Positions 5,140 through 64,000 of a stretch of 64,000 nt of DNA are shown in pieces (the stretch's first letter is position 1; every line of letters starts with the position of its first letter). The position numbers and the translations under genes were made by a program. Under the pieces are notes generated by a model. It was given only the letters and a program-made list of their open reading frames with translations, was not told the origin of the DNA and did not search any database. The stretch lies in contig OX597815.1 in the NCBI GenBank assembly GCA_951406725.2, forward strand, positions 54,374,001-54,438,000, in the 5' to 3' direction. Source of the DNA: Octopus vulgaris. Its lineage: Eukaryota.

Positions 5140-5535
5140 TCCATTACTTCGGGATGATCATTATTTTGTCAAAAAAACACACGCATTATATATTCGTTCT
5201 TCACTTTAGCGTTATAACTATTCCTATTTTAGTGTCCTTTATCTTGAATATTTCGTCACGCATTCTGTCATCTCATCGGCGACCCTCCATCCCACATGTC
5301 GCTTCCTGTTCTGTTTAGTTCACACCACAAAATGACAACATGAGCTAAACGGAACAGGATGAAAGAGGATGAAACAGGTGGAAAGTCGTTGAAGAGGTCG
5401 CAGAGCGTATGATGAAATATTTAAGACAAATGACACTAAAATAAGAACAATAATAAAGTTGAAGCGAAGAACAAATATGCATTGCGTGTGTTTATTTGGC
5501 TAAAAAAATGACCCTCTCGAAATATAACAATATAT
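5140..5535 (-). mobile_element. Degenerate inverted-repeat PLE terminal-repeat unit, related to 53807-54130
   Basis: Inverted arms share cacacgca/tgcgtgtg and aaaatgacc...cgaaata..ac with the 53.8 kb unit; internal eroded hammerhead (minus strand CCGATGA..gtgac GAAA) at 5251-5279. Confidence 0.55.
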
Positions 5536-5626
5536 GTTTCAGCATACGATTTTATATCAGGAATTTTGGAAAACTAATATATAAACGTATATATACATGG
5601 ATATACATACATACATACATACATAC

Positions 5627-5669
<43 letters not shown>

Positions 5670-5673
<4 letters not shown>

Positions 5674-6151
5674 TAACTAATGTAGGATAACATATTTTCG
5701 AAAAAAAATTTTATCAACGGCCAGCATATCAAAAAATACCTTTAAAGGTTAAATTTATAAATAACTTATAAAATAAGGGCAAAAGAAAACTTCTAATGCC
5801 AAATATGCCGAAAAAAAAGACAAAATTGTCAATAACCCTTATAATTTATGCGTCTCGAAACAAGCCGATAGAAATTTCTAAAAAATCCGTTATTACCGTA
5901 TTGGTTCCAATTTCGGGATTAATTCATAAGAATTTTCCCCTCCTCAGCGATAAATACGTAAGACATAAATGAAATACTTACTCATACCCATGGAAAAAGC
6001 AAGCACTAAGTCCTGAGCAGACCTAAGATTTTTTAGAAATTTCTATCGGCTTGTTTCGAGACGCATAAATTATAATGGTTATTGACAATTTTGTCTTTTT
6101 TCAGCATATTTGGCATTAGAATTTTTCTTTTGCCCTTATTTTATAAGTTAT
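5670..6151 (-). mobile_element. ORF-less PLE terminal-repeat (pLTR) unit with inverted arms, inserted in (TA)n
   Basis: Arms 5761-5887 and 6027-6151 are reverse complements with few mismatches; hammerhead in the spacer; (TA)n on both sides. Confidence 0.75.
5893..5953 (-). ncRNA. Type I hammerhead ribozyme
   Basis: ttatcg CTGAGGA g ggga-aaattcttatgaattaa-tccc GAAA ttggaaccaa TA cggtaa; stems I, II and III all pair. Confidence 0.85.
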
Positions 6152-6329
6152 ATATAATTATATATATATATATATATATACAAAAAGCAATAAAGATTCA
6201 AGTTAATTTAAATGAATTTACTTGAATATGGTACCTAACTTAGATGCACCAAAAAAAACTATACTGTTTTAACAATACAGTAATGTGGGGTGATTATAAG
6301 CGAGAAAGAAGCAACAAGAATGGATAGGT

Positions 6330-6420
6330 TTTTAGTACAATCGTTTCATACAAGGACAGGCTTTATTAAAAGTTGCAAAAATTACAGCATATAAACGTGT
6401 CCCGTACTCATCAGCTAAAA
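6330..6420 (-). ncRNA. Type I hammerhead ribozyme in pLTR (sense copy)
   Basis: ttttag CTGATGA gtacgggaca..39 nt..tgtccttgtat GAAA cgattg TA ctaaaa. Confidence 0.85.
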
Positions 6421-6571
6421 TACATGTGAGTTCTCTAGACATCCTATTGGTTGAGGCTATACTCATGAAGTAATGTAGGTAATTAAGTAACATAAACAGA
6501 TTTCCAAAGTTCATTAAAGTTCTTTAAAGATGATGTACAGTCTTATCACAGCATTTTAAAAAGTTTTAATA

Positions 6572-6860
6572 GCATCACAGAGAAGGTGACCTAATCCATA
6601 GTGCACATATGAATTTCCAGAGATATGATGAGGGATTACATACTCACAGACGACAAATTTATCCATTGTTAATCACAACGAGGTGGGTCTCAATTCCTGC
6701 TTATTAGCATTACAGAGAGGGTGAATTAATCCTTTGTATAGATGCACAATTTCCAATGGTGTAGATGTAAATTTCCAGAGAAATGAAGAGGAATTTCATA
6801 TTCACAGGCGATAAATTTATCAATGGTTGAACACAATGAGGTAGGTATCAATTCTTGTTA
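6572..6860. repeat. Two diverged tandem units of about 135-155 bp in the PLE 3' UTR
   Basis: gcat.acagaga.ggtga..taatcc ... aatttccagaga.atga.gagg ... cacaa.gaggt.ggt.tcaattc occurs twice. Confidence 0.7.
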
Positions 6861-7883
6861 TATGATTAGGTATTTGCCACATTAATCACATTACTGCCAC
6901 TTACAAGAGGCTGTATCTATTTAACTTTTAAAGGCTGAAGGGCTTTCTAGAGAGGCAAAGAATAGAAAAGGGAAGGGAATAGAAGAAAAGAGAGAAAATA
7001 AAGGAGGAGGGAGCAAAAAGGGGGGAGGGGGACTAAAAGAGAAGAGAAAAGGAAAAAGAGAATAGGAAGAAGAAAAAGAAAAAAGAGAAAAGAGAAAGAA
7101 ATAGGGAAAGAAGGGAAAAAAGGGAAAAAAGAAAAAGAAAAAAGAGGGTTCTAGTTATACAGAAGAATTAGTAGACGGCAAGTCTGGTTTTAATTTACAG
7201 GCATCTAGGAACTAGAGGAGAATATTATTCTTTGACCAGTAAAACATCTAATTTATTGCTGTTGAAATCAGCTATGAATTTAAAGAGAATCTAAAGAGAT
7301 AACACTGTCAGGGGTTTAGGGGTCAGATGCTAAAATCAAAAGAAAATACATTAGGAAAATCTAAGTATAATCTTATCAAAAAGTCATTAAAGTTTACTTA
7401 TTTAATTTATTCATTATATTGTCTGAAGGAGTTGCTTTTATTATTCATACATTGACGGACTACAGGTCAAATCTTAGAAGATCATTTACATGGTGTTAGG
7501 GGATTGTCTATCATAATGAAGATAATCATATTATCACCGAGGGAGTAGCCTTATTTATTTAATTTTGAAATAGAATTATGGGGCTATAGTAACTCATTTT
7601 ATTTTATTAGAGTTATGCTACTTAAATTAGATTAAGTTAGGAATTAAAATTAAAAATTACAATTAAGATTTAAAATTAAGAATTTAAAATTATGAGTTTG
7701 AAATTAAATAAAGCCTCAATTAAGCAGCGTATAAGTACTATTCATTTCCCTGTTCTCAAAAAACTGATGCAGATATAAGGAAAAAGATAACTGTAGTGTG
7801 AGAACTCTTAGTTATCTACTTAAAGCAGTGCTATACTAGTAGAAATCAAGTTATATCTATCTATCTAGTTACTAATATTCTAA

Positions 7884-8837
7884 TCATTTAAAATATTTTA
7901 AAGTCTTCAATTTAGCGTGGACACAAACTTGACCTAGTTCGATATGGTTATTCAATAAGTTTCTATGTTTTCTATGCTTTAGAATTTCATACGTCTCCAT
8001 GGAGCATAGTTGGCAACCAACCCTACTATTTTTATACGGAATTGCTCTCCTAACTATTTCCCAATTAAGGTTATAATTATTATTATTATTTTTGAGTTCC
8101 CAGATTTTGTTTGAAAGTGTGGTGGTACCAGCTTTATGACGTAATTTAAAAGACGAGATGTGATTTCTAACTCTGGCTAGAAAATTAATTGTACATCCAA
8201 TGTAAAAATATTTGTTATTCTCCGTGGATATGGTACATTTATAGATTACATTATTTTCCCCACATAGACCAGGTGCCGGGCATTTTGATTTTATTCTACA
8301 CTTACACACAGGAGGAACAACTTCAGGCTTTGGATTATTCTTGGGTAGATGTCTTAGGTTCCTATTATTTTGATTATCATTTCTATAGTTGGTGCTGATA
8401 TCTAAAGTATTGCTATTATTTATTGATCCTTCTATTTCATCATTTAGGTCTAAAGTCCTACCATGATTTCTTATATTATTGGTAATGTTACTATTATTGT
8501 TAGTCCTTTTATCCGACTGCATATTGTTGTTATAGATATCACTGATATTTTCATTCTCCTTATTTTCTCCATTAGCCTTATTTCTATTATTTCTATTATT
8601 AACATTATTACTTCTATTAATATCGGCATTGTTATTATTACTATTAATGTTAATGTTATTAGTCATTCTGTGGTTACTAATTTCACCTATGTTTTGATAG
8701 TTACTATTGCTGTTTTTATTGTTGGTAGTATTATTATAATTGCTATTGGTATTCATGCTGATATTATTATTTTTATTTCTATCTTTCCTGGCTAGTTTAA
8801 TGTTGTTATTATTAATCTTAGCTATTAAAGTGGACAT
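7884..8837 (-). CDS. C-terminal part of PLE ORF: Asn-rich linker plus GIY-YIG endonuclease
   Basis: CKC..K..CP..G.C linker, VIY...YIG, R..NH..SF, CQLC..E, LLN; upstream in-frame FP..HRYHRII..KTVRISYSTLPN. Confidence 0.9.
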   Translation of the reverse strand: MSTLIAKINNNNIKLARKDRNKNNNISMNTNSNYNNTTNNKNSNSNYQNIGEISNHRMTNNININSNNNNADINRSNNVNNRNNRNKANGENKENENISDIYNNNMQSDKRTNNNSNITNNIRNHGRTLDLNDEIEGSINNSNTLDISTNYRNDNQNNRNLRHLPKNNPKPEVVPPVCKCRIKSKCPAPGLCGENNVIYKCTISTENNKYFYIGCTINFLARVRNHISSFKLRHKAGTTTLSNKIWELKNNNNNYNLNWEIVRRAIPYKNSRVGCQLCSMETYEILKHRKHRNLLNNHIELGQVCVHAKLKTLKYFK

Positions 8838-9000
8838 ATTTGGGAGGGTTGAATAAGAAATCCTAACTGTTTTCCTAGAAATAATTCTATGATATCTATG
8901 AGAGATAGGGAAATTTTTTTCTTAATAATTTTACTTAATTACCTACATTACTTCATGAGTATAGCCTCAACCAATAGGATGTCTAGAGAACTCACATGTA

Positions 9001-9091
9001 TTTTAGCTGATGAGTACGGGACACGTTTATATGCTGTAATTTTTGCAACTTTTAATAAAGCCTGTCCTTGTATGAAACGATTGTACTAAAA
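9001..9091 (+). ncRNA. Type I hammerhead ribozyme (inverted pLTR copy)
   Basis: Reverse-complement duplicate of 6330-6420. Confidence 0.85.
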
Positions 9092-9121
9092 ACCTATCCA
9101 TTCTTGTTGCTTCTTTCTCGC

Positions 9122-9172
<51 letters not shown>

Positions 9173-11512: not shown

Positions 11513-11574
<62 letters not shown>

Positions 11575-11745
11575 GAAAACTGAACCCCAGTAATAAATAT
11601 TGGCTCAACCAACACAGAAGATGGGAAGAAAACAACTACCAAAGACAAAACAACACATACAGACCACACAGACCACCCCAACTACAAGAAAACCTAAGAA
11701 CTGAAAATGGAATTTGGAGACGTAACAACACAACCCATTTTTTAG

Positions 11746-13362
11746 GAGAGGATACTTCAACCATACTCCAGACCCAATACACCAAAAATTCCGGATGAAC
11801 TCCCAAAACACATAGACCCCAAAATAATAAACTTATCTAAAAGAGAACTTGACGAATATGAAATGAACCTACTACTAAAAGGCCTCAAATTTACACCTAC
11901 ACCCACTCCAAACCTCATAGAACTAAAAACTGACATAGATAACTTCAGCCGCTACCTCCGCCTTATGGAATTCTTTGAAAATAAAGAAACAGAAGATAAC
12001 TCAATCATAAGAAAAAAATCCCACTTCACCCCTTACAAGGGAAGTGACAAACACCTTGACACGTACATAGAAACAATATCCAAATTCCCTCTTCACACAC
12101 ACAAATGCAAACAGAATCTCCGCAGAGAAGAAAAGCAAGCCCTACAAAAACTGAAAAATGACAAATCAATCGTTATAAAAGAAGCTGACAAAGGTGGAGC
12201 AATAGTAATTATGGACACAGATTACTACAAAGAAAAGATACTAGAGTTACTGAACAACCAGACATATTACAAAGAGGAACCAACACCACCGGAGAAAGCA
12301 ACAATAAGAAAAATTAGAACTTTAGTCAATGAATATCAGGACTCCTTTACAGATAAGGAGGAAGATTATCTATGCAACTCACAAACCAAAGAAAGCAACT
12401 TTTATGGATTACCTAAAATTCATAAAAGCTCGGAAATACAGAGAGCCATAAAGGAACAGAGGAACCACTACATAAGAGTACAAAGACCTGCAGACCTCAC
12501 GATGAGACCAATAGTGGCAGGACCCCAGGCACCAACACAACAACTAAGCCACTTCATAGATATACTCCTCAAACCTCTATGCCCACAGATTCCAAGCTAC
12601 ATAAGGGATGACATAGACTTCCTCACACACATTCCAAATACAGTCCCGAAAAACACCATACTTGCAAGCTTTGATGTCACAAATCTATACACAAACATAC
12701 CACACACCCTAGGTCTAGAAGCTATAAAACAATCAATAGAAAAATACAGAGAACTTATAGATGAACGCTTCAAGACAAACTTTATCACCCAAGCCACCCA
12801 ACTAATACTAGAAGAAAACACATTCTCATTCAACAACAAGACATACCGACAGATAAAAGGCACGGCTATGGGTACAAAATTCGCACCTTCATATGCCAAC
12901 CTAGTGATGGGCTTCCTGGAGAAAAAACTATATGACGAAATAGGGAAAGTTTTCGAACACGACTTCAGAGAAGACATCAAGAAAAAGTGGAAACGCTACC
13001 TCGATGACTGTTTCATCTTTTGGAACAGATCAGAAGAGGACCTACAAACATTCCACAACATCCTCAATACGCTGCACCCATCTATCAATTTCACAATAGA
13101 TACCAGCCACAACGAACTTCCCTTCCTAGACATCAACATCAAAATACACAACTCCATCGTCACAACAGACATCCACTACAAAAAAACTGACACACATCAA
13201 TACTTAAATTTCCACTCCTGCCACCCATCCCACACAAAAAGAAACATCCCATATAGTATGGCACGACGAATATGTAGCATAGTAACTGATTCACAAATAC
13301 GATTAATAAGACTAGATGAACTCAAAAGCTTCCTCCTAGAGCAAAAATACCCCTTAAACTAA
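11746..13362 (+). CDS. PLE reverse transcriptase; frame open from 11746, first ATG at 11863
   Basis: IINLS..L..E..LL.KGLKFTPTP, ADKGGAIVIM, FYGLPKIHK, RPIV, DVTNLYTNIPH, GTAMGTKFAPSYANL, RYLDD, LPFLD, HPSHTKRNIPYS. Confidence 0.95.
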   Translation, partial: ERILQPYSRPNTPKIPDELPKHIDPKIINLSKRELDEYEMNLLLKGLKFTPTPTPNLIELKTDIDNFSRYLRLMEFFENKETEDNSIIRKKSHFTPYKGSDKHLDTYIETISKFPLHTHKCKQNLRREEKQALQKLKNDKSIVIKEADKGGAIVIMDTDYYKEKILELLNNQTYYKEEPTPPEKATIRKIRTLVNEYQDSFTDKEEDYLCNSQTKESNFYGLPKIHKSSEIQRAIKEQRNHYIRVQRPADLTMRPIVAGPQAPTQQLSHFIDILLKPLCPQIPSYIRDDIDFLTHIPNTVPKNTILASFDVTNLYTNIPHTLGLEAIKQSIEKYRELIDERFKTNFITQATQLILEENTFSFNNKTYRQIKGTAMGTKFAPSYANLVMGFLEKKLYDEIGKVFEHDFREDIKKKWKRYLDDCFIFWNRSEEDLQTFHNILNTLHPSINFTIDTSHNELPFLDINIKIHNSIVTTDIHYKKTDTHQYLNFHSCHPSHTKRNIPYSMARRICSIVTDSQIRLIRLDELKSFLLEQKYPLN

Positions 13363-14051
13363 TAGAAAATGGAATCACAAGAGCATTAAAACTAGACATC
13401 ACACAACTCAGGACACCCAAAACAAAAAACAAAGAAAACACTATCCCTTTTATAAACACACACAACCCTGGAGTTACCAACATCTTCCAAACCATACATT
13501 CAAACCTACCAATAGCCTTACAGAGCCCCAAAATGAAAAACATATTAAACAAATATAGCATAAAAAACAGTAGACGACAGGACAAAAACCTAAAAAAACA
13601 CCTAACAAGAGCGAAATTCTCTTCAGAAACTAAAACGGAATTCTTTGCAAAAGAGTGCGGAGATGGTAGATGTGGGACCTGCAGCAACCCCACCTACAAA
13701 TACATAGAGAGCAACAGAGAGATAAGATTTAAAAATGGTGTCATATTCAAAGTAAATGCAGATATGAACTGCAAGACGCAGAACGTCATATACTGCATAA
13801 CCTGCCCCACATGCAAGGAGAATTACGTAGGAGAAACTGGTAATTCTTTGTGCCAGCGAGCCAGGATCCACCGACAACATATTCGGCAGGAAGAACTACG
13901 CAAAATACCACTAAGCACACACCTAGCTACATGTGGAGAAGGAAAATTTAAGATATTTCCCTTCTACAAGTGTCCGAAGAATGACACCCCCTTCAGGAGG
14001 AATATGGAAAAACATTTCATAGCTAAGTTCTCCCCCAAATTAAATGGCTGA
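13356..14051 (+). CDS. PLE thumb end, Zn-knuckle linker and GIY-YIG endonuclease; continues the RT after a 1-bp frameshift at the C-run 13350-13353
   Basis: Open from KLIENGITRA; CGDGRCGTC, NC.TQNVIYCITCPTC..YVGET, R..H, H...C, E.HFI, LN. Confidence 0.92.
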   Translation, partial: KLIENGITRALKLDITQLRTPKTKNKENTIPFINTHNPGVTNIFQTIHSNLPIALQSPKMKNILNKYSIKNSRRQDKNLKKHLTRAKFSSETKTEFFAKECGDGRCGTCSNPTYKYIESNREIRFKNGVIFKVNADMNCKTQNVIYCITCPTCKENYVGETGNSLCQRARIHRQHIRQEELRKIPLSTHLATCGEGKFKIFPFYKCPKNDTPFRRNMEKHFIAKFSPKLNG

Positions 14052-14558
14052 AACTTTACTCAACATACATTGAAGGAAAAATCTGTGTGTGTGTATTGCC
14101 TGTTATATACATCATATTATATTATTATCTTTATAATTCACTTCCATCTTTACCCTTTAATTGTCACTTTAATTTTAACTTTCCTATGACATACAACTTT
14201 CAAGATGGTATAATTTGGTTGTTCATTTTGAACCGATAAAAAGGTTTTTTCAAATATTTTATGTATAAGTCTGTGTGTGTGTATATATGTGTTGGTATAA
14301 ATATCAACACACAAAAATATTTTTTCTTCTCCACTTCCTCCCTTATTTTTATTTTTATTTTTATTTTTATTTTTATTTTTTTATTTTTTATTCTTTATAT
14401 TTTTATTTATTCTTTATATTTTTTTATTTTATTTTTTATTTTTTGTTTTTTATTTTATTTTTTTAATTTTTTAATTTTTTATTTTTATTATTATTATTTT
14501 TATTTTCCCTTTTCTCTTTTTGTCTCTCTCCCCTTCTCCAAACACACAGACACACACA

Positions 14559-21236: not shown

Positions 21237-22640
21237 TGTATGTGTATATATATATGCGTGTATGTGTGTGTGTGTATGTGTGTGTGTGTGTGTGTGTGCA
21301 TTTTATATATATATACACAATTGCAGCGTGGAAGGTGTTTGTAAACCATTTAAGAAACACACAAAAGCCGTTCGATTCACTTATATATATATTTACATAT
21401 ATATATATATATACACACACATATATATATACACACACAAAGATAAATTGATAGATACAACTGAGTGGGCAAACAAAAATATGAGATACTGCCTAGTGGG
21501 GTTTTTTTTATTTTGATAAGCCTGGTACTTATTCTATCAGTTTCTTCTAGTGAAACCAGTAAGTTATGGGGATGTAAATAAACGAACACCAGTTGTAAGG
21601 CAATGATGAGGGAGAAACACAAACACACACACACACAGACTTACATAAATACATACATATATATACGATTGATTTCTTTATGTTTCTGTCTACAAAATCC
21701 ACTAACAATGCTTTGGTTGGTCTGAGGCTATAGCAGAAGATACATGCCAAGTCACCATACAGTGAGACTGAACCAAGCAGCATGTGTTTTGGAACGAAGT
21801 TTGTTACCACACAGCCATACTTGCACCTATGTATGTGTGTGTGTATGTGTGTATGGGTGTATGCATGTTTATATGTTAAATATATATGTGTACATATTAC
21901 ATGTACATCTATATATATATACATCTACACATATACATGTATACATATACATCTATATGTATAGAAATAAATGTATACATATACAGCTACACACACATAC
22001 ACACACACACATACATAGGTGCAGGTGTGGCTGTGTGATAGCAAACTTCGCTCCAAAACACATGGTCCTGGGTTTAAATTTAAATTTAAAATAATAATGG
22101 TGAGAAATTGAATATCAATTTGATTAATATGAATTGAAAACCAGTGGTGTAGCATATAAGACCATAGCGGATCTTCTTCTAGCAAAATGTGTCCACTGTT
22201 AAAGGTTCATCCCTCATATATAATAGTTTGACTTTAATAGTTTCAGTATTAAAGTGAAAGTATCTGACATTAAAATAGGGAGATGTCTTTGTTTGAATTT
22301 TAACCCGTAAGACTGAAATAGTGGAAAAGATATGATATTGCTGTGGGCTCGACCAAGGCATGAATTTAGACATTTTTTTCCCATAACACTACATAGACCC
22401 TAAGTAAGGCATGTTTAAAATTTGAATGAAATTAGTTGTGTATTTCTCAAGTTTTAGGGATTCATAGTGGAGAAGATATGATATTGCTGTGGGCTCGCTC
22501 TAGGCAAAAAGTTAAAAAATCTTTTGCCCATATGACAGTCCCCGGACCCTAAATAAGGCATGTGTAAAATTTGGATGAAATGTAGTTCTCAAGTTTTAGT
22601 TATTCACACAGACACACATTCTCAGTTTAATATATATATA
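19614..22640 (-). mobile_element. Non-autonomous Helitron-like element with internal SINE fragments
   Basis: Minus-strand 3' end cgggcaacgccggg hairpin followed by CTAG|t at 19614; subterminal repeats of about 150 bp at 22318-22630. Confidence 0.55.
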
Positions 22641-26075: not shown

Positions 26076-26954
26076 GCAGGCAACCATTTCTCATAAAGAA
26101 ACATTTTAAACACTGCAATTCTATAAATCATGTTATCGTCTTCCCTATAAAAGACACATCTATATCTATTTCTCTGCTACTTTAAAAACATGTCCTCCTC
26201 TACTGACATTTATGCATTTTCACCACAACCAGAGTTTGCCCTTTTAACTTCACTCTAACTGTACTTTGCCCTGAGGAAGCGTGTTCAGGAATTATTTATT
26301 AAAATCACTGATCATTGTACGTATAAATATATATCGTCAGAAAATCTATATATTCTCCTTGACAACCGCAATGGCTTTGTGAAAGAGGGAAACAATGTAG
26401 GAATAAAGTAGAGAAACAAAGAAAAGATAAAGAAAAAGAAATAGATATCTCACTAAGTCGAAATTTGTACAAACAGAACAAAATAGATTAGACTAGATTT
26501 AATTCTCATATAGATGAGAACTAAATCTTGTCTAATCTATTTTGTCTCTATAAACTTTAGTAGAAACTGGGTTATTGTGGTCTATATTGTGCAATATAGC
26601 AGTATCTAATCGCAGTAAAACACAGAGATGTTATATTCATAAAAATGCACATGGTGATAATTGAAATTGCGCCAAAATCTTTTCCATAACATATAGAAGG
26701 TCGTAACATCATAATTCTTGCATGATTTCTTTATGTAAAACTTCCCTTTTTGAAGTGCTGTTAACTTCTCTTACAAAACAGTTACTTCATTTCTTTGAAA
26801 CACTGTAATGCATTATGATTAACAAGAGCTACAGTGTCTACAGGGAAATATACTTCCTAATCATTCCTTGTATTGCAGTAAGAGTTCAGTGCTGTCGTCT
26901 ACTTTATTTATGACAAGTCTGAATAATGTAGAAACAAAACAAAAACTACATAAA

Positions 26955-34478: not shown

Positions 34479-34479
<1 letters not shown>

Positions 34480-35145
34480 ACAAGATAAGAAAATGGAGAA
34501 ATACATCTAAATCAAATATCAATTACCAGATAATACTCAATCACATACTTTATTAAACCACCACATAAGAGACTGTAGGGTTAAATATAAAAAGCAGAAC
34601 AAATCAGTGTACATAAAGGAATGTACATAAAAAAGTGTACATAAAAGAGTAATATTGGTAAAATGAGACATAGTTATTGGTAAAATGAGACATAGTTATC
34701 GGCATGGCCGAAACAGCTGTAAGATCTAATTTATACTTATATTTATATTTACTTGTATTTATATTCTTTTTTATATATATTCTAATTATTATACAATATT
34801 ACTCTTATATGTACACTTTTTTATGTACATTCCTTTATGTACACTGATTTGTTCTGCTTTTTATATTTAACCCTACAGTCTCTTATGTGGTGGTTTAATA
34901 AAGTATGTGATTGAGTATTATCTGGTAATTGATATTTGATTTAGATGTATTTCTCCATTTTCTTATCTTGTATTAGTAATTTGTGGTAAATCATTTTACC
35001 TTTGCCCATATTATACAGTAAATGAATTGATTGTATCGCAATCATTAACATTTATGTATTAACTTTGTTGGGTACTGCAGTAGCAGTATATTGGATATAC
35101 GTTATCCCATAGAGGGTTGCATTTACAACCCCTATCTCAATTTGT
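34479..35145 (+). mobile_element. ORF-less PLE pLTR unit with inverted arms of about 180 bp, in (TA)n
   Basis: Arms 34479-34657 / 34794-34972 nearly identical; spacer holds a hammerhead 3' half (gcc GAAA cagctg TA agatc, 34707-34726). Confidence 0.75.
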
Positions 35146-36880: not shown

Positions 36881-38840
36881 CATAGACAGTAAATTTGACT
36901 TACAGCTATTTCCAGTAATCGATATCGAGTTGTTATTTATTCTTTTAAACAATCGGTCTATTGATGGGTCGTTAAAAATTGCACAACCAGAAATTGCTGT
37001 GATGAAATTTTTTGGGTCATTCAATTTTTCTAAACCGATCAATGTAGCAATTGAGTAAATCCATCAACAACGAACCTATAAGGACTACTGGAAACAGATG
37101 TAAGTCAAATTTATTGCAACAAAGAAAAAAATATGTAATGATCATTATTTATACATTGTCTTGTCTAAAATTCAGTATAACTAGAGCACAACCACAGATT
37201 TACAATATGGATTGGTGACAAACTATAACTGGTATAGAGGCCAGCGTCACGGATTCGAACTGCACAACATTGCATTGGAATGACGTCAAGGAGAGACATG
37301 CTCAGCAGTTGGTTTCTTTCAGAAAAAAGAAGCAAAGACATCTAACATCTATATATCCAATATGCAATGGGCCTTTAAACAGAGGACTTCGGACAAACCA
37401 CATATAAGCTGAAAGTCATTAAGGCCAGCAAAAAAAAAGGGCCCGAGACAGCAAATGTGACTTCTGTATCACAGAAAATTTAAATAAAATAACATCAACT
37501 GTGAACATTTGAGTATTAGGGAAGCAACTGTATCTCCTTTCATGCACAAGTAATGATTCATACTTTGGAATTTCAGCCATGATCGCTTATCCTCCTTTCC
37601 ATCTATCCAAACGGGTTACATTTTGGGGATTTCAATTATACACACAAGTATTACAGAGGCATACCCCATTAAAACCATACAGGAACTTTTAACTACGCAG
37701 ATATATGTGCATAACACATATTCTGACACCATACGATTTAGAAAATATATAAATGAATTTATAGATAGATGTATATGAAATTATAAATATTCTTATGATC
37801 TTACTACTCTGCGACCCTTCAAGAGAGTTAAGGTTTCTTCGCCACATCCTTGACTATACTGCTCAACAAAATCTCAGTAATTTGAATCTAGTAAACATCA
37901 TTGTAGCTCCCTGGTCGGCCGGTTTGCATCAAATTATAACCTCGCCATACTCTACTTTCATTTATTTATTTGCCCCAACATATCACAACTTCTCACTTGA
38001 TCTCGGATGCAAACGGTTAGCAGAAAGACAAAACATTATTACACAATTTAAACGGGAATATCCTTTGCTCAGTACATCTAACAAAGATCAAAGAGACACA
38101 GCTAAAGGGTATTGATTCTTATCAGCTAAATAGAAGTTTGTGCTTTGTTTTCTATGTTCATTTTATATTTTAGGTATTATCATATCTTAGATGTTACATC
38201 TCAAACTGCGTTTTTGTTTGCTTGTATTTACCCCTTCGTTTGTGACTTCTTGCATTCAGTTAAGTAAAATATAAATAAATATATAAAATATAAATAAATA
38301 TATAAATATATATACATAACGATACCAAACATTGGATTTCTTTAAAATTTCACAAGCATCATCTGTTACAACTTTACATATATTATATTCCTAATATAAA
38401 AAGAAAATTCAATATCTACTATAGTTATCTTTGTTTGTATACCCTCGAGAGGGTGGCGGCTAATGTTGGTAAATTCGTGACTAAGTTACTAACCGAAATA
38501 AGAGGATCTATTGTTTAGGAAAATATCATTTACTTGTTTAAGGCTTATACTAGTTAAATTGCGAAAATAACTCTAACGGTTTAAATACTAAGAAATAAGC
38601 ATACTCAATTTCATTTTACCAAATAATTTAGGAAAATGAATGGGTTATTTCCCTTGGATATATATAAGGATCCCTTCCAGGGACCTTATTATCGACTTAT
38701 TCTACAACCTGAGTATGCCATGAGGGTTCCAGACCTGAGTTCTACTCACGTGTCAAGTTTCATCAAAATCAATAAAATGATGTAGGAGTTAGCTAACAAT
38801 TCCACAAAAACACCCACAAACAGAATTTCCCACATATGTA

Positions 38841-45183: not shown

Positions 45184-45528
45184 TGTATGGGTACAGGACA
45201 TAACCAATGTTGCAAATGACATGAAATACGTAAACAGAAAGAAGACTTTTTTTGAAAAGAGAAAAGATACTTGTCCTGTTTTCCATTTTTCATCTCGTTG
45301 TTTACGTATGTTATGTTATTTGCACCGATGGTAATGTCCTGTACCTATATATGCATGTGTATGTATGTGTATATATTTAACATAATAAATCCGTTTTAGG
45401 AAATAATCCTAAAATTTTAAGTTTCAAATTTAGTTAATGGAGTTTCTTCTTTAAGAAAAAAATTATTTCATTTATTTTTTAAATAAATATTGTTTAAATA
45501 TATTTGCTTATTTATTTAACAATTATTG

Positions 45529-52959: not shown

Positions 52960-53022
52960 TAACTACACGTGTTTCGTGGCAATATTTAAGAAATTTTAAC
53001 AGTAAAATCACTCTTCAGGTTA
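52960..53022 (-). ncRNA. Type I hammerhead ribozyme in PLE 3' pLTR
   Basis: taac CTGAAGA gtg..cac GAAA cacgtg TA gtta; palindromic stem III. Confidence 0.8.
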
Positions 53023-53806: not shown

Positions 53807-54130
53807 TTGTTGTCTTTCGGAATGGTCATTTTACCAGTTTAGCCAATAAAAACACACGCACTTTATATTTGGTGTTACTTTGCTTCAGTGTTATTTATTT
53901 TTTACATTAATCATAATCTTATTTCGGCCAGAGTTCTTTCGTCACACTCCTGTGACCGCATCAGTGGTCCTTTGCTTTCTTCTTTCTTATTTGTGTCTCT
54001 CCTTACTAACCGTCAGCCATTTTGTATTTCTATTGTATGAAATAACACTGAAGCAAAGTTACACCAAATATATAGTGCGTGTGTTTTTTTGGCTAAACTG
54101 GCAAAATGACCATTCCGAAATACAACGATG
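53807..54130 (-). mobile_element. ORF-less inverted-repeat unit with hammerhead, nested in the PLE 3' UTR
   Basis: Arms 53807-53896 / 54040-54128; internal hammerhead 53926-53969. Confidence 0.75.
53926..53969 (-). ncRNA. Minimal hammerhead with core variant CUGAUGC
   Basis: gacca CTGATGC g gtcaca-ggag-tgtgac GAAA gaac TC tggcc. Confidence 0.7.
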
Positions 54131-56892
54131 TCTGTTTCAACACACGACTTCACATAAAAAATCTTGCACAACAAATATATAAACGTAATAATATTAATAA
54201 TAAAACATAATACAATTCAAAAGTTAAATAATATTTTAAAATAAAAAACGTTACTTATCTTGTCGATGAATATTATATAATTGAATTTTGAACGTAAATA
54301 TGTCGGTCTTAGCGTTTATAAGAAATTAAACTCGTGAACACGTTGTGTAAAAAGATAGAATAAAATCATCAATGAAAATGACGAAATATATTTATTAATG
54401 ACAAAGAAGAAAAATATTAAAGCTTCAATAATTGAAGAAAAATAGAATAACAAAAGAAGTATAAAAGACTATTTACTATAAATTAAATTCCAAATAGGTA
54501 TTACGTAAAATATACATATTTTAAATTAATTTATATTACTATAACTAATAGTAATAAAATTATATATAATCATTTATGTATTAAGAAATATCTAAGTTTA
54601 AAATTATTCAAATATATTAATATAACATATAAAAATATAGTAAATAGTACACTAATACTTCTAAATTATATCTACAGGAAATAGATAACATAAAAAGAAA
54701 TAAGGTTTTATACATACAGAAAAATTAGCTAAACGTATCATATAGGTAAATAAAATTATGTTAGCATTTAATTTGAAATGACTACTTACTATAAATGTAA
54801 AGTCAAATTAATAATTAAGTAAAATATATATATTATATTTACATTAATTTATGTATATATATAATTAATATATCTTAATAAATTTATATAATCATTTATT
54901 TATTAGCTAAACCTATTATATAGGTAATTTAATTTATGTTTACATTTAATTTTACGTTCCTCTAATGAATTTATCATCACATAATTGTTATTAAATAATA
55001 TTTCTTTGAATTCATTATTACACAATAAATTACTCCCCGTACAATATGATTTTTCCCAATAAATAATATCCCAAGTTAATTTATATTTAATGGATCTAGA
55101 TTTAATAGATCTATATTTACCGAGAGCTGTTGAATTTATTAGATTTTTATTCCTAAAAGAAAACATATGTTGAACTAATCTTGATTTAATTTTATTCGAA
55201 GTGGACCCTATATAAATAGTGTTTAAATTATGATTATTCGAATTCTTATCATCTATTAAATTTACCATACACTTATAGACTACAGTATCTAAATTACAAT
55301 TATTATTAAATTACATGTAGTCTTATCACTACATGTACAATAAATTATATCTTGGTCTTTATTATTATTATTATTGGAATCAATATTTAATGTATGCTTG
55401 TAGAATTAATTTAATTTAAATTTATTAAATGAAGAAATAATATTACCAACATTATTAGGAGTTGAAAACCCAACTCCAAAATTTTTATTAGAAAATATGT
55501 TATTATATTTTTTATTATCTTTAATGAATATTTCAATTATATTTAAAATCTCTTTAATAACATTTGTTTTAACCTGAGCCACAGAAGGAACGATTAACCA
55601 TATTTTATTCTTATCTTTTATTATGATTATATTTTTGTAATATTATTAAATTTATAATCTTCATTAATTGCATTAAATTTTATTTTATTTTTATTTTTAT
55701 TTTTTATTCCAATATTAAATATATGATTTACATCATCAAAATACCTATTATTATTAAGACGATAGATACCTACATAAAATTTATCATAATTTAGATAATT
55801 AGGTTTATCATTATAAAAATCATTTATATTGTACTCCTTCAAATTATAATTATGTTTACAAATATGAAAGAATTTAATATTATTATCATATCCTGCCTCA
55901 TGTAGGGCTTTATTATAATAAGGTGCATGTTTATTACAACTTTCTAAATCATACGAAAGTAATGATAATCTTTTACCTACATTATTTTTTAACAATTTTT
56001 TAACAGAAGGTGGATGATTACTATAAGCATTAATATATCTGAGATTTTCATTAATTTTATGGAATGGTTGAGTTTTACTCATTATTAAATTAAAACTAAT
56101 ATCTAAATAATTGACATTATAGTTCTCATTATAAATACTAATACCTAAACCATATCCTTTAACGAAATTATAAAGTTTTTCTATTTGTACGATCCTTAGT
56201 AAGTAAAGGTCATCTCTATATAAACTACCCTCCAATTTTAAATTTTCTAATTGAAGTTCCGATAATAAATAAGAACCTACTAAATCACTAGCCTGTGCAG
56301 AATCTCGTGGGCCCATAGCTATATCAAAATAGTTCCTAGTATCCTTACTAGCGCATAATGTATTATATCTAATTAACGATTTCCTAGCAATTTTAATAAC
56401 ATTAACATCATCAGAAGTCATTCCTACCTTATTCATTTCATAAATTAGGGCTTTATTGAGTACGATCTCATTAATAGAAGAAGAATAATTATCCATAACT
56501 ATTTCAATGAATTTATATTTATTTTTATCTTTAGTATTATGAAACCATTTTAAAGTATCATTAGTACTATTTCAAAGTTTTAGGTAATTAAATTCATTTA
56601 ATCTATTAATGTATTTATCTAGAATAATTTTTCTTAATTTACCTAAATCTGATTTACATGGACAAATTAATCTAGCCTTAGGTTCAGAGTAAAAATGTTC
56701 CTTGTAGTCTTTCAAAGTTATCCTAGGGTGCATAGATACATGAGGTTCAGTTTTATTATCTAAATTATATTTCATCATTATTAATTTAGAGGATTTAGTT
56801 ATATTATAGAGTGTATTTACTGGGACAGTTTTGTATTTTATACTTATTTATTTCTTTAATAGGATATCATACAATTTAATATCTAGTTTATA

Positions 56893-63859: not shown

Positions 63860-64000
63860 TTAGAAAAGACCACCTTTTATCAATTCAAAAATGAAAAAAA
63901 AAATTATGTCATTTAGAAAAAATTACGTCGTATAGAACGATTAAATATAAGCTAAACCATATACCAAAACCTATCAACGGAGTGAAATCACAGCTTCAAA
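63860..64000 (-). mobile_element. 3' end of another copy of the 52745 PLE family, continuing beyond the window
   Basis: 63910-64000 matches 52793-52883 (gattaaatataag...acggagtgaaatcacag.ttcaaa); follows (TA)n. Confidence 0.8.

What the first reader, a model, noticed from the sequence alone, without database searches (positions are those of the whole stretch)
5670..6151. ORF-less hairpin units carrying hammerhead ribozymes: a possible retrozyme-like non-autonomous system
Seen: a 480-bp insert in (TA)n with inverted arms of about 125 bp around an intact type I hammerhead. Similar units with different sequences recur at 34479-35145 and 53807-54130, with a relative of the latter at 5140-5535. 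Smaller hammerhead-bearing inserts lie at 22640, 28474 and 29885. Known: PLE pLTRs carry minimal hammerheads, 5'-inverted truncations are common, and ORF-less retrozymes exist in animals. Inference: these are either one-off truncations or self-cleaving non-autonomous elements mobilised by local PLE RTs. The 5140/53807 pair has similar arm ends, which favours propagation as a unit.
Basis: partly seen in the sequence, partly recalled or inferred. Interest (0 to 1): 0.75.

Follow-up and report, generated by a model that had tools for sequence, protein, structure and literature searches.

The report
Hammerhead retrozyme with Penelope insertion footprint
This hairpin is one truncated, two-armed copy of a 466-base protein-free repeat scattered hundreds of times through the genome, which carries a predicted self-cutting RNA motif and is likely pasted into TA repeats by a Penelope-type retrotransposon enzyme, a known kind of element (retrozyme).

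Summary
The focal observation holds: (TA)n-flanked insert, 117-bp arms 96% alike, intact type I hammerhead on the minus strand (5893-5953). But the hairpin is not what propagates. It is part of an ORF-less 466-bp head-to-tail monomer (828 exact hits of one 25-mer). Of 83 sampled loci, 46 are head-to-head two-armed insertions; 36 of 46 pair one arm ending near monomer position 466 with one ending near 380, none pair like with like, and inner breakpoints differ. This is the Penelope (PLE) two-start-site 'tail' footprint. Arms read through the cleavage site (61 of 67), so the template was likely a circle or uncut multimer. Hammerhead stems covary between subfamilies while the core stays fixed. 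A stem-loop before the 466 end is shared by a clan of such families (4,413 motif hits). No autonomous partner was found; cleavage and circles are untested. Known class (animal non-LTR retrozyme); this scan already reported the same footprint for other families in this genome and others.

The parts
5577..5669 (.). Left TA-type microsatellite, insertion target
   Evidence: TRF; 107 of 120 fixed 3' ends in the family are followed by a TA-type tract
5670..6027 (-). Long arm: monomer positions m111-466 of the 466-bp unit, ending at fixed site 1 (m466)
   Evidence: BLAST to the L028 monomer, 94%
5670..5755 (-). 86-nt 'tail' (m381-466) between the two fixed ends; present on one arm only
5686..5727 (-). 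Clan-wide tail motif: conserved 17-nt leader plus a predicted stem-loop (5686-5715) closed by GATAA/TTATC, about 16 nt before the m466 end; candidate RT-recognition signal (inferred)
   Evidence: 4,413 pattern hits against 1 for the reversed control; 33 of 35 fetched variants fold into this hairpin although the inner sequence differs; coordinates
5888..5958 (-). Type I hammerhead: core 5947-5941, predicted cleavage after AUA between 5899 and 5898, stem I extended past a 2x2 loop, two-part stem II, palindromic stem III
   Evidence: active fold costs 2.7 kcal/mol over the MFE in the L028 monomer circle
6030..6150 (+). Short arm: m253 to about m375-381, ending at fixed site 2; joined head-to-head to the long arm at a private junction (6027/6030)
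   Evidence: junction found only in L001 among 358 loci
6149..6180 (.). Right (TA)n microsatellite; a 14-bp TA-rich word with one AATT interruption lies on both flanks (5661-5674, 6146-6159), a possible target duplication that may also be monomer-derived

Best explanation
The insert is a 5'-truncated, two-armed copy of a dispersed, ORF-less 466-bp head-to-tail monomer with a type I hammerhead (an animal non-LTR retrozyme), likely written into a (TA)n tract by the RT-endonuclease of a Penelope-like element from a circular or uncut multimeric RNA. Shown by sequence: monomer period, no ORF, head-to-head arms, one arm ending near m466 and the other near m380, TA targets, variable inner ends, read-through of the cleavage site and of the head-tail junction, same subfamily alleles on both arms. 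Inferred: (1) copies of more than one monomer are transcribed and the hammerheads cut out a monomer that is ligated into a circle; (2) a PLE protein binds the tail stem-loop; (3) it cuts both strands of a (TA)n tract and each 3' end primes cDNA, one at each of two internal start sites 86 nt apart; (4) the two cDNAs stop early and are joined at their inner ends, giving the hairpin. The hairpin is a by-product made anew at each insertion. Odds: non-autonomous PLE-mobilised family about 0.85; two independent primings about 0.7; circular rather than linear multimeric template about 0.55.
For: Period 464-475 bp in 10 of 30 loci. Of 25 distinct loci holding m37-56, 19 continue upstream into the previous monomer and 6 stop or invert there; none leads into a shared ORF. 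Longest stop-free frame in the circle 90 aa. 83 loci: 46 two-armed, 32 single, 5 complex; 36 of 46 are 466+380 pairs, 0 of 46 same-end pairs, 10 have a degraded end. In 13 of 36 neither arm contains the other (read from the rows), which excludes simple fold-back for those. Arms of one insertion agree at 196 of 204 polymorphic positions, against 53% between insertions. 61 of 67 arms that reach the cleavage site pass it, with no rise in stop rate; 18 of 111 arms cross the head-tail junction; one locus holds 2.6 monomers (L044). In 127 ribozyme copies not selected by the ribozyme pattern, N7 is A/C/G/T 78/24/18/7, 0 of 11 invariant core sites carry a variant shared by 8 or more copies against 26 of 79 other sites (p 0.03), and stems change in pairs (m200-221 GC 83, AT 32; m188-242 TG 66, CG 41, TA 16). 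Monomer circle folds at -124 against -88 +/- 6 kcal/mol for 60 shuffles. An autonomous PLE next door shows the same two-end geometry with a 119-nt tail. PMC11167929 showed in vitro that a PLE protein cuts and extends both strands and starts at two internal RNA sites that bound the tail.
Against: No cleavage, circle or RT reaction was observed. No autonomous partner was found: 14 of 225 family loci and 4 of 35 motif loci have a PLE protein hit; for the 14, all are in the wrong orientation, downstream, or cut off by a TA tract; the 4 were judged from coordinates only. The young PLE next door shares no sequence and lacks the tail motif. Read-through of the cleavage site fits an uncut transcript as well as a circle, and PMC11167929 found the hammerhead dispensable in vitro. 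Only 95 of 127 ribozyme copies keep a full core, and copies are about 94% identical to the L028 monomer, so the family may no longer be active. No long array was seen: 38 exact head-tail junctions, all dispersed. Allele sharing between arms could also come from one source locus being active at a time or from conversion between arms. Li et al. saw cleavage in only 1 of 9 predicted elements. Relatedness inflates the covariation counts: they are a few events, not 127.
Confidence: 0.78

Rival explanations
1. The monomer is only the pLTR of an autonomous PLE not yet sampled, and all short copies are its 5' truncations.
For: This is what the window's 34479 and 53807 units appear to be. Genome searches score only 40 candidates or list 100 places, so rare full-length copies could be missed.
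Against: 19 of 25 loci that reach the monomer start continue into another monomer and none into an ORF. Sister families at 82% (480-bp period), about 65% (L233) and a 499-bp period family (L307) also show tandem or permuted monomers with no PLE protein hit.
Confidence: 0.08
2. Same element and enzyme, but the template is a long uncut read-through transcript of dimer or trimer loci; the ribozyme is used at another step or is a relic, and no circle is involved.
For: No pile-up of ends at the cleavage site; longest arm in the 83-locus sample 797 nt, longest seen 2.6 monomers; unprocessed RNA was the main substrate in vitro in PMC11167929.
Against: Core conservation and stem covariation across subfamilies point to selection for cleavage in the source lineage. 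With constant truncation a linear route loses length each round, while no long arrays were seen to restock it; a circle resets length. Related elements in mussel, coral and axolotl give circles.
Confidence: 0.3
3. The second arm arises by fold-back: the first cDNA primes on itself and is copied back to the TA-like site at m380.
For: Inner ends of the two arms lie within 16 nt of each other in 11 of 36 pairs against 3.3 in shuffles (p about 1e-4); arms share alleles.
Against: In 13 of 36 pairs neither arm contains the other (rows); 12 of 32 single-arm copies end at m380 on their own. It can explain at most the symmetric subset, which two RTs stopping at one RNA break would also give.
Confidence: 0.12
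4. The hairpin itself is a MITE-like or hairpin-RNA unit that is copied whole.
For: L002 and L003 have the same inversion junction.
Against: L002 and L003 also share their flanks, so they are a segmental duplication. The window junction is private; contigs of four runs continue past 6027 into the monomer, not into the inverted arm.
Confidence: 0.02

Closest known systems
Animal non-LTR retrozymes (Cervera and de la Pena 2020, PMC7229834; passages and sections 14 and 17 read)
   Same: ORF-less tandem monomer, one type I hammerhead per unit, GC 32% (below 45%), strongly self-paired predicted circle with the ribozyme nearly free to fold, coexistence with PLEs.
   Different: 466 nt is above the 170-400 nt given there; mostly dispersed sub-monomer to 2.6-monomer copies in (TA)n rather than arrays; that text has 0 hits for 'inverted', 'microsatellite', 'octopus' or 'cephalopod'. 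Circles were shown there and are untested here.
Non-LTR retrozymes as non-autonomous PLE derivatives (Li, Clavereau and Pollet 2026, bioRxiv 10.64898/2026.07.22.740005; parts 1-3 of 5 read, supplements closed)
   Same: Length within their 51-972 bp; many monomeric or partial copies; PLE origin proposed.
   Different: They link families to PLE pLTRs by homology in Xenopus; no such parent was found here. They sampled 31 vertebrates, 3 insects and 1 anthozoan, and the parts read do not analyse insertion ends.
EN+ Penelope-like elements (Craig et al. 2021, PMC8557442, passages read; Frangieh et al. 2024, PMC11167929, abstract, main text and part of methods read)
   Same: Partial tandems, inverted 5'-truncated arm, tail on one end only, (TA)n bias, hammerhead upstream of the two ends; tail bounded by two internal RT start sites near a stem-loop.
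   Different: No ORF; tail 86 nt against 30-40 bp described (the autonomous neighbour here has 119 nt); hammerhead has full stems, not the minimal PLE form.
Non-autonomous Chlamys PLEs such as MRC1 (PMC8557442, passage read)
   Same: ORF-less, head-to-tail copies with pLTR-like ends.
   Different: Those share 3'-end sequence with known autonomous families and most Chlamys lack a hammerhead.

Membership tests
Animal non-LTR retrozyme | Short head-to-tail monomer without ORF | tested here: met
   Period 464-475 bp in 10 of 30 loci; longest frame 90 aa
Animal non-LTR retrozyme | One type I hammerhead with intact core per monomer | tested here: met
   (95 of 127 intact); 938 pattern hits genome-wide against 0 for the control, sister families included
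Animal non-LTR retrozyme | [quoted passage not shown] 'active' criterion) | tested here: inconclusive
   Not met by the window copy (one ribozyme). L018, L022 and L044 span two or more ribozyme positions, but intactness of both was not scored
Animal non-LTR retrozyme | Low GC, highly self-paired predicted circle | tested here: met
   GC 0.32; z -6.1, 66% paired
Animal non-LTR retrozyme | Self-cleavage in vitro | not testable with these tools
   Prediction only
Animal non-LTR retrozyme | Expression as monomeric circular RNA | not testable with these tools
   Only assembled contigs of runs guessed to be RNA were available
PLE-type insertion product | Two fixed 3' ends bounding a tail found on one side only | tested here: met
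   36 of 46 two-armed loci mixed, 0 of 46 same-end
PLE-type insertion product | 5' truncation, inverted arm, partial tandems, microsatellite target | tested here: met
   107 of 120 ends beside TA-type tracts
PLE-type insertion product | Sequence link to an autonomous PLE | tested here: inconclusive
   None among 225 + 35 + 20 loci searched with 7 protein baits; sampling incomplete
Autonomous PLE (pLTR fragment) | RT and GIY-YIG ORF contiguous with the repeat | tested here: not met
MITE-like hairpin unit | Same terminal inverted repeats and inner junction in unlinked copies | tested here: not met

The most novel reading that the evidence does not exclude
A clan of 466-500-nt protein-free circular RNAs has persisted long enough to diverge to about 65% identity while keeping two RNA signals: a hammerhead for making circles and a terminal stem-loop that recruits a PLE RT dimer. 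The dimer copies one and the same RNA molecule from two start sites on both ends of a TA cut. The stem-loop would then be a transferable PLE-RT recognition signal, defined by natural covariation across thousands of copies.
Probability: 0.35. Interest if true: 0.68.

Novelty: new member of a known kind. Interest (0 to 1): 0.4.

Why it matters
Mobilisation of animal retrozymes by PLE enzymes has been proposed from co-occurrence and homology, and PLE integration steps after priming are still unproven. These copies give countable footprints (strict 466+380 pairing, shared alleles between arms, no stop at the cleavage site) and a candidate cis signal, the tail stem-loop, that make both questions testable with a 466-nt RNA. 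The class is known and the scan has already noted the two-armed footprint in several other families, which caps the surprise; five literature searches listed no paper on cephalopod retrozymes or on twin priming in PLEs, but subscription papers and supplements were not seen.

Tried and rejected
Rfam scan of the window at E up to 1: no hammerhead family listed, only microsatellite-driven hits below gathering scores; uninformative. Idea that arm 5' ends pile up just after the cleavage site: suggested by eye (several stops at m252-257), not borne out in the 83-locus sample (6 stops of 67 at risk, rate 0.09, like neighbours; second lap 3 of 9, too few). RNA evidence: no RNA holder listed on record; contigs of runs guessed to be RNA cover the family and its head-tail junction but cannot show strand, ends, level or circles, and no silent control stretch was laid, so nothing is drawn from them. 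Partner search: neighbouring 984-aa PLE, distant hammerhead look-alikes L233-L235, 35 tail-motif variants, one variant family in 20 loci, a converging junction pair L353: no ORF-linked member. L234 was a chance match inside a LINE fragment. mis-registered 23 copies with indels and included pattern-selected loci; it was replaced. Look-up of earlier findings by sequence returned nothing. Pfam did not recognise the 984-aa ORF or the L332 fragment; their PLE call rests on motifs and on similarity to window ORFs with Pfam RVT_1 or GIY-YIG hits.

Full report
Observation. The stretch 5670-6151 lies between TA-type microsatellites and has inverted arms at 5771-5887 and 6027-6141, 95.7% alike. A descriptor scan of both strands of the window gave two strict type I hammerheads; one is on the minus strand at 5893-5953 with a complete core, stems of 6, 4 and 4 bp and predicted cleavage between 5899 and 5898. 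Rfam listed no hammerhead.

What the unit is. A genome search with the unit gave 3,077 candidates, of which 40 were scored. In 10 of the 30 loci returned the end motif recurs at 464-475 bp, defining a head-to-tail monomer, taken here as the 466-bp unit of L028. It is 32% GC, has no stop-free frame above 90 aa and as a circle folds far below 60 shuffles (z -6.1). The window copy is m111-466 on the minus strand joined head-to-head to m253-381 on the plus strand. Exact-match counts give lower bounds of size: 828 for m335-359, 391 for m37-56, controls 0. Among 25 distinct loci holding m37-56, 19 run upstream into the end of another monomer and 6 stop or invert; none enters a shared ORF. Exact head-tail junctions number 38 and are dispersed, with no array.

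Insertion anatomy. I fetched all places among the first 100 listed (contigs 1 and 2), 83 loci after removing duplicates. 46 are two arms joined at their 5' ends, 32 are single arms, 5 are complex. Of the 46, 36 have one arm ending near m466 and one near m380, 10 have one or both ends degraded, and none has two like ends. Single arms end near m466 (18), near m380 (12) or elsewhere (2). 107 of 120 such ends abut a TA-type tract. Inner ends vary widely; the window's junction occurs in no other of 358 loci held, and the one identical pair seen (L002, L003) shares its flanks too. The hairpin is therefore made anew at each insertion. In 13 of 36 pairs neither arm contains the other, so fold-back cannot explain them; in 11 of 36 the inner ends lie within 16 nt of each other (shuffle mean 3.3, p about 1e-4). 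The two arms of an insertion agree at 196 of 204 polymorphic positions against 53% between insertions, as expected if one template variant served both.

Template. 61 of 67 arms that come within reach of the cleavage site pass it, with no rise in stop rate, and 18 of 111 arms cross the head-tail junction. A cleaved linear monomer could give at most 227 nt from m466, so the template was a circle or an uncut multimer. The data do not separate these.

Selection on RNA structure. In 127 distinct ribozyme copies from loci not chosen by the ribozyme pattern, 95 keep a full core. The free position N7 takes all four bases; no invariant core site has a variant shared by 8 or more copies (0 of 11, against 26 of 79 elsewhere; p 0.03); several stem pairs change on both sides or through G-U. 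These reflect a few subfamily events. A gapped pattern for this ribozyme type has 938 hits. Sister families were found at 82% (480-bp period) and about 65% (L233), and further ones that share little more than the ribozyme or the tail (L235 family; a 499-bp period family). All carry, just before the outer end, a conserved leader followed by a hairpin of variable length and sequence: 4,413 hits against 1 for the control; 33 of 35 fetched variants fold so, though the pattern itself fixes the closing pairs. I infer that this is the protein-binding signal; it is untested.

Partner. The element at 6180-9122 is a young autonomous PLE (many copies 97-100% alike in protein, ORFs up to 984 aa) with a CxCx5C linker as described for the Hydra clade (sequence; PMC8557442 passage). 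Its copies end at two sites 119 nt apart, the same geometry. It shares no sequence with the monomer and lacks the tail motif. Protein baits hit 14 of 225 family loci, none contiguous with an arm's 5' end, 4 of 35 motif loci (coordinates only) and 0 of 20 loci of one variant family. The partner is unknown.

34479: a young family (96-98% alike) whose ribozyme has a long loop II and a CCGAAGA core; the window copy lacks the 5' half. Its upstream sequence in L340 matches the inverted arm of L338 over 482 bp, which continues into a GIY-YIG-like frame (E 2.5e-5); one locus only. 53807: same two-end pattern with varied inner ends; L331 and L332 share upstream sequence that runs into a broken endonuclease C-terminus similar to the window's Neptune-like ORF (E 3e-7 in a 20-sequence space). 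5140 is a 66-74% relative with 69-75% arm identity. 29885 matches, by eye, the tail-motif family of L261, L263, L273, L276 and L279, with a mutated core. 28474 is a two-armed scrap 68-74% like the neighbouring PLE's end. 22640 was only inspected.

Comparison with what is known. The unit meets the sequence criteria of animal non-LTR retrozymes (PMC7229834: passages, sections 14 and 17); cleavage and circles could not be tested. PLE origin of such elements is argued in bioRxiv 10.64898/2026.07.22.740005 (parts 1-3 of 5). Tandem, inverted and tail structures and TA bias are standard for PLEs (PMC8557442, passages), and the tail was tied to two internal RT start sites, with both DNA strands extended, in PMC11167929 (parts 1-2 of 4). 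Searches listed no paper on cephalopod retrozymes or PLE twin priming; supplements were not read and could list such families. Earlier notes of this scan report the same two-armed footprint for 355-360-nt and 485-495-nt families in this genome and for others elsewhere. I had noted the two fixed ends before the look-up; the 'both ends of the cut' framing came from those notes and was then tested.

Verdict. Real, and a new member of a known kind. The parts most worth keeping are the clan-wide tail stem-loop, the strict end pairing and the lack of stops at the cleavage site. Interest 0.40.

Noticed in passing
window 6180-9122 (-): Young, high-copy Hydra-like PLE, two-armed, with N-rich linker, 1.7-kb 3' region and a hammerhead whose stem II encloses about 66 nt (9002-9092 and 6329-6419); copies with 980-984-aa ORFs exist (L291, L292).
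   Followed up: partly
window 11570-14340 (+): Neptune-like PLE with RT (PF00078) and GIY-YIG (PF01541) in two overlapping frames.
   Followed up: no
window 52960-53022 (-): Second strict hammerhead hit (stems 4/3/3) beside a repeat shared with 63885-64000.
   Followed up: no
window 54903-56571 (-): Degenerate PLE (GIY-YIG and RT-like frames); the 53807 unit lies about 870 bp downstream of its endonuclease frame.
   Followed up: partly
34479 family, L334-L352: Ribozyme core reads CCGAAGA with a loop II of about 110 nt in this young family.
   Followed up: partly
53807 family, L313 and L328: Ribozyme core reads CUGAUGC, a departure at A9 seen in both copies inspected.
   Followed up: no
monomer m226-239, 48 of 127 copies: A subfamily has a 1-nt deletion in the palindromic stem III, with paired changes in stem I.
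   Followed up: partly
monomer m13-21 and m148-162: An ETS-like CACTTCCGG word and an ATG followed by donor-like GTATGA and GTAAGT words are kept in the 82% sister family; possible promoter and intron relics (labels recalled, not tested).
   Followed up: no
window 26478-26545, 36887-37116, 45186-45349: Further short palindromes of unknown kind.
   Followed up: no
L353 (G000:C3:56555200-56565000): Two partial copies face each other across 4.7 kb of mirror-image low-complexity repeats; no ORF hit.
   Followed up: partly
L107 and L293: An element with TAACCCTTTCGTTAC-type ends has inserted at a TTAA inside one arm, and a similar one in the tail of a sister family.
   Followed up: no
runs X4, X11, X16, X17-X19: The family is held by runs under four coded organism labels, so it is probably shared by related species; only X4 and X16 of these were laid.
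   Followed up: partly
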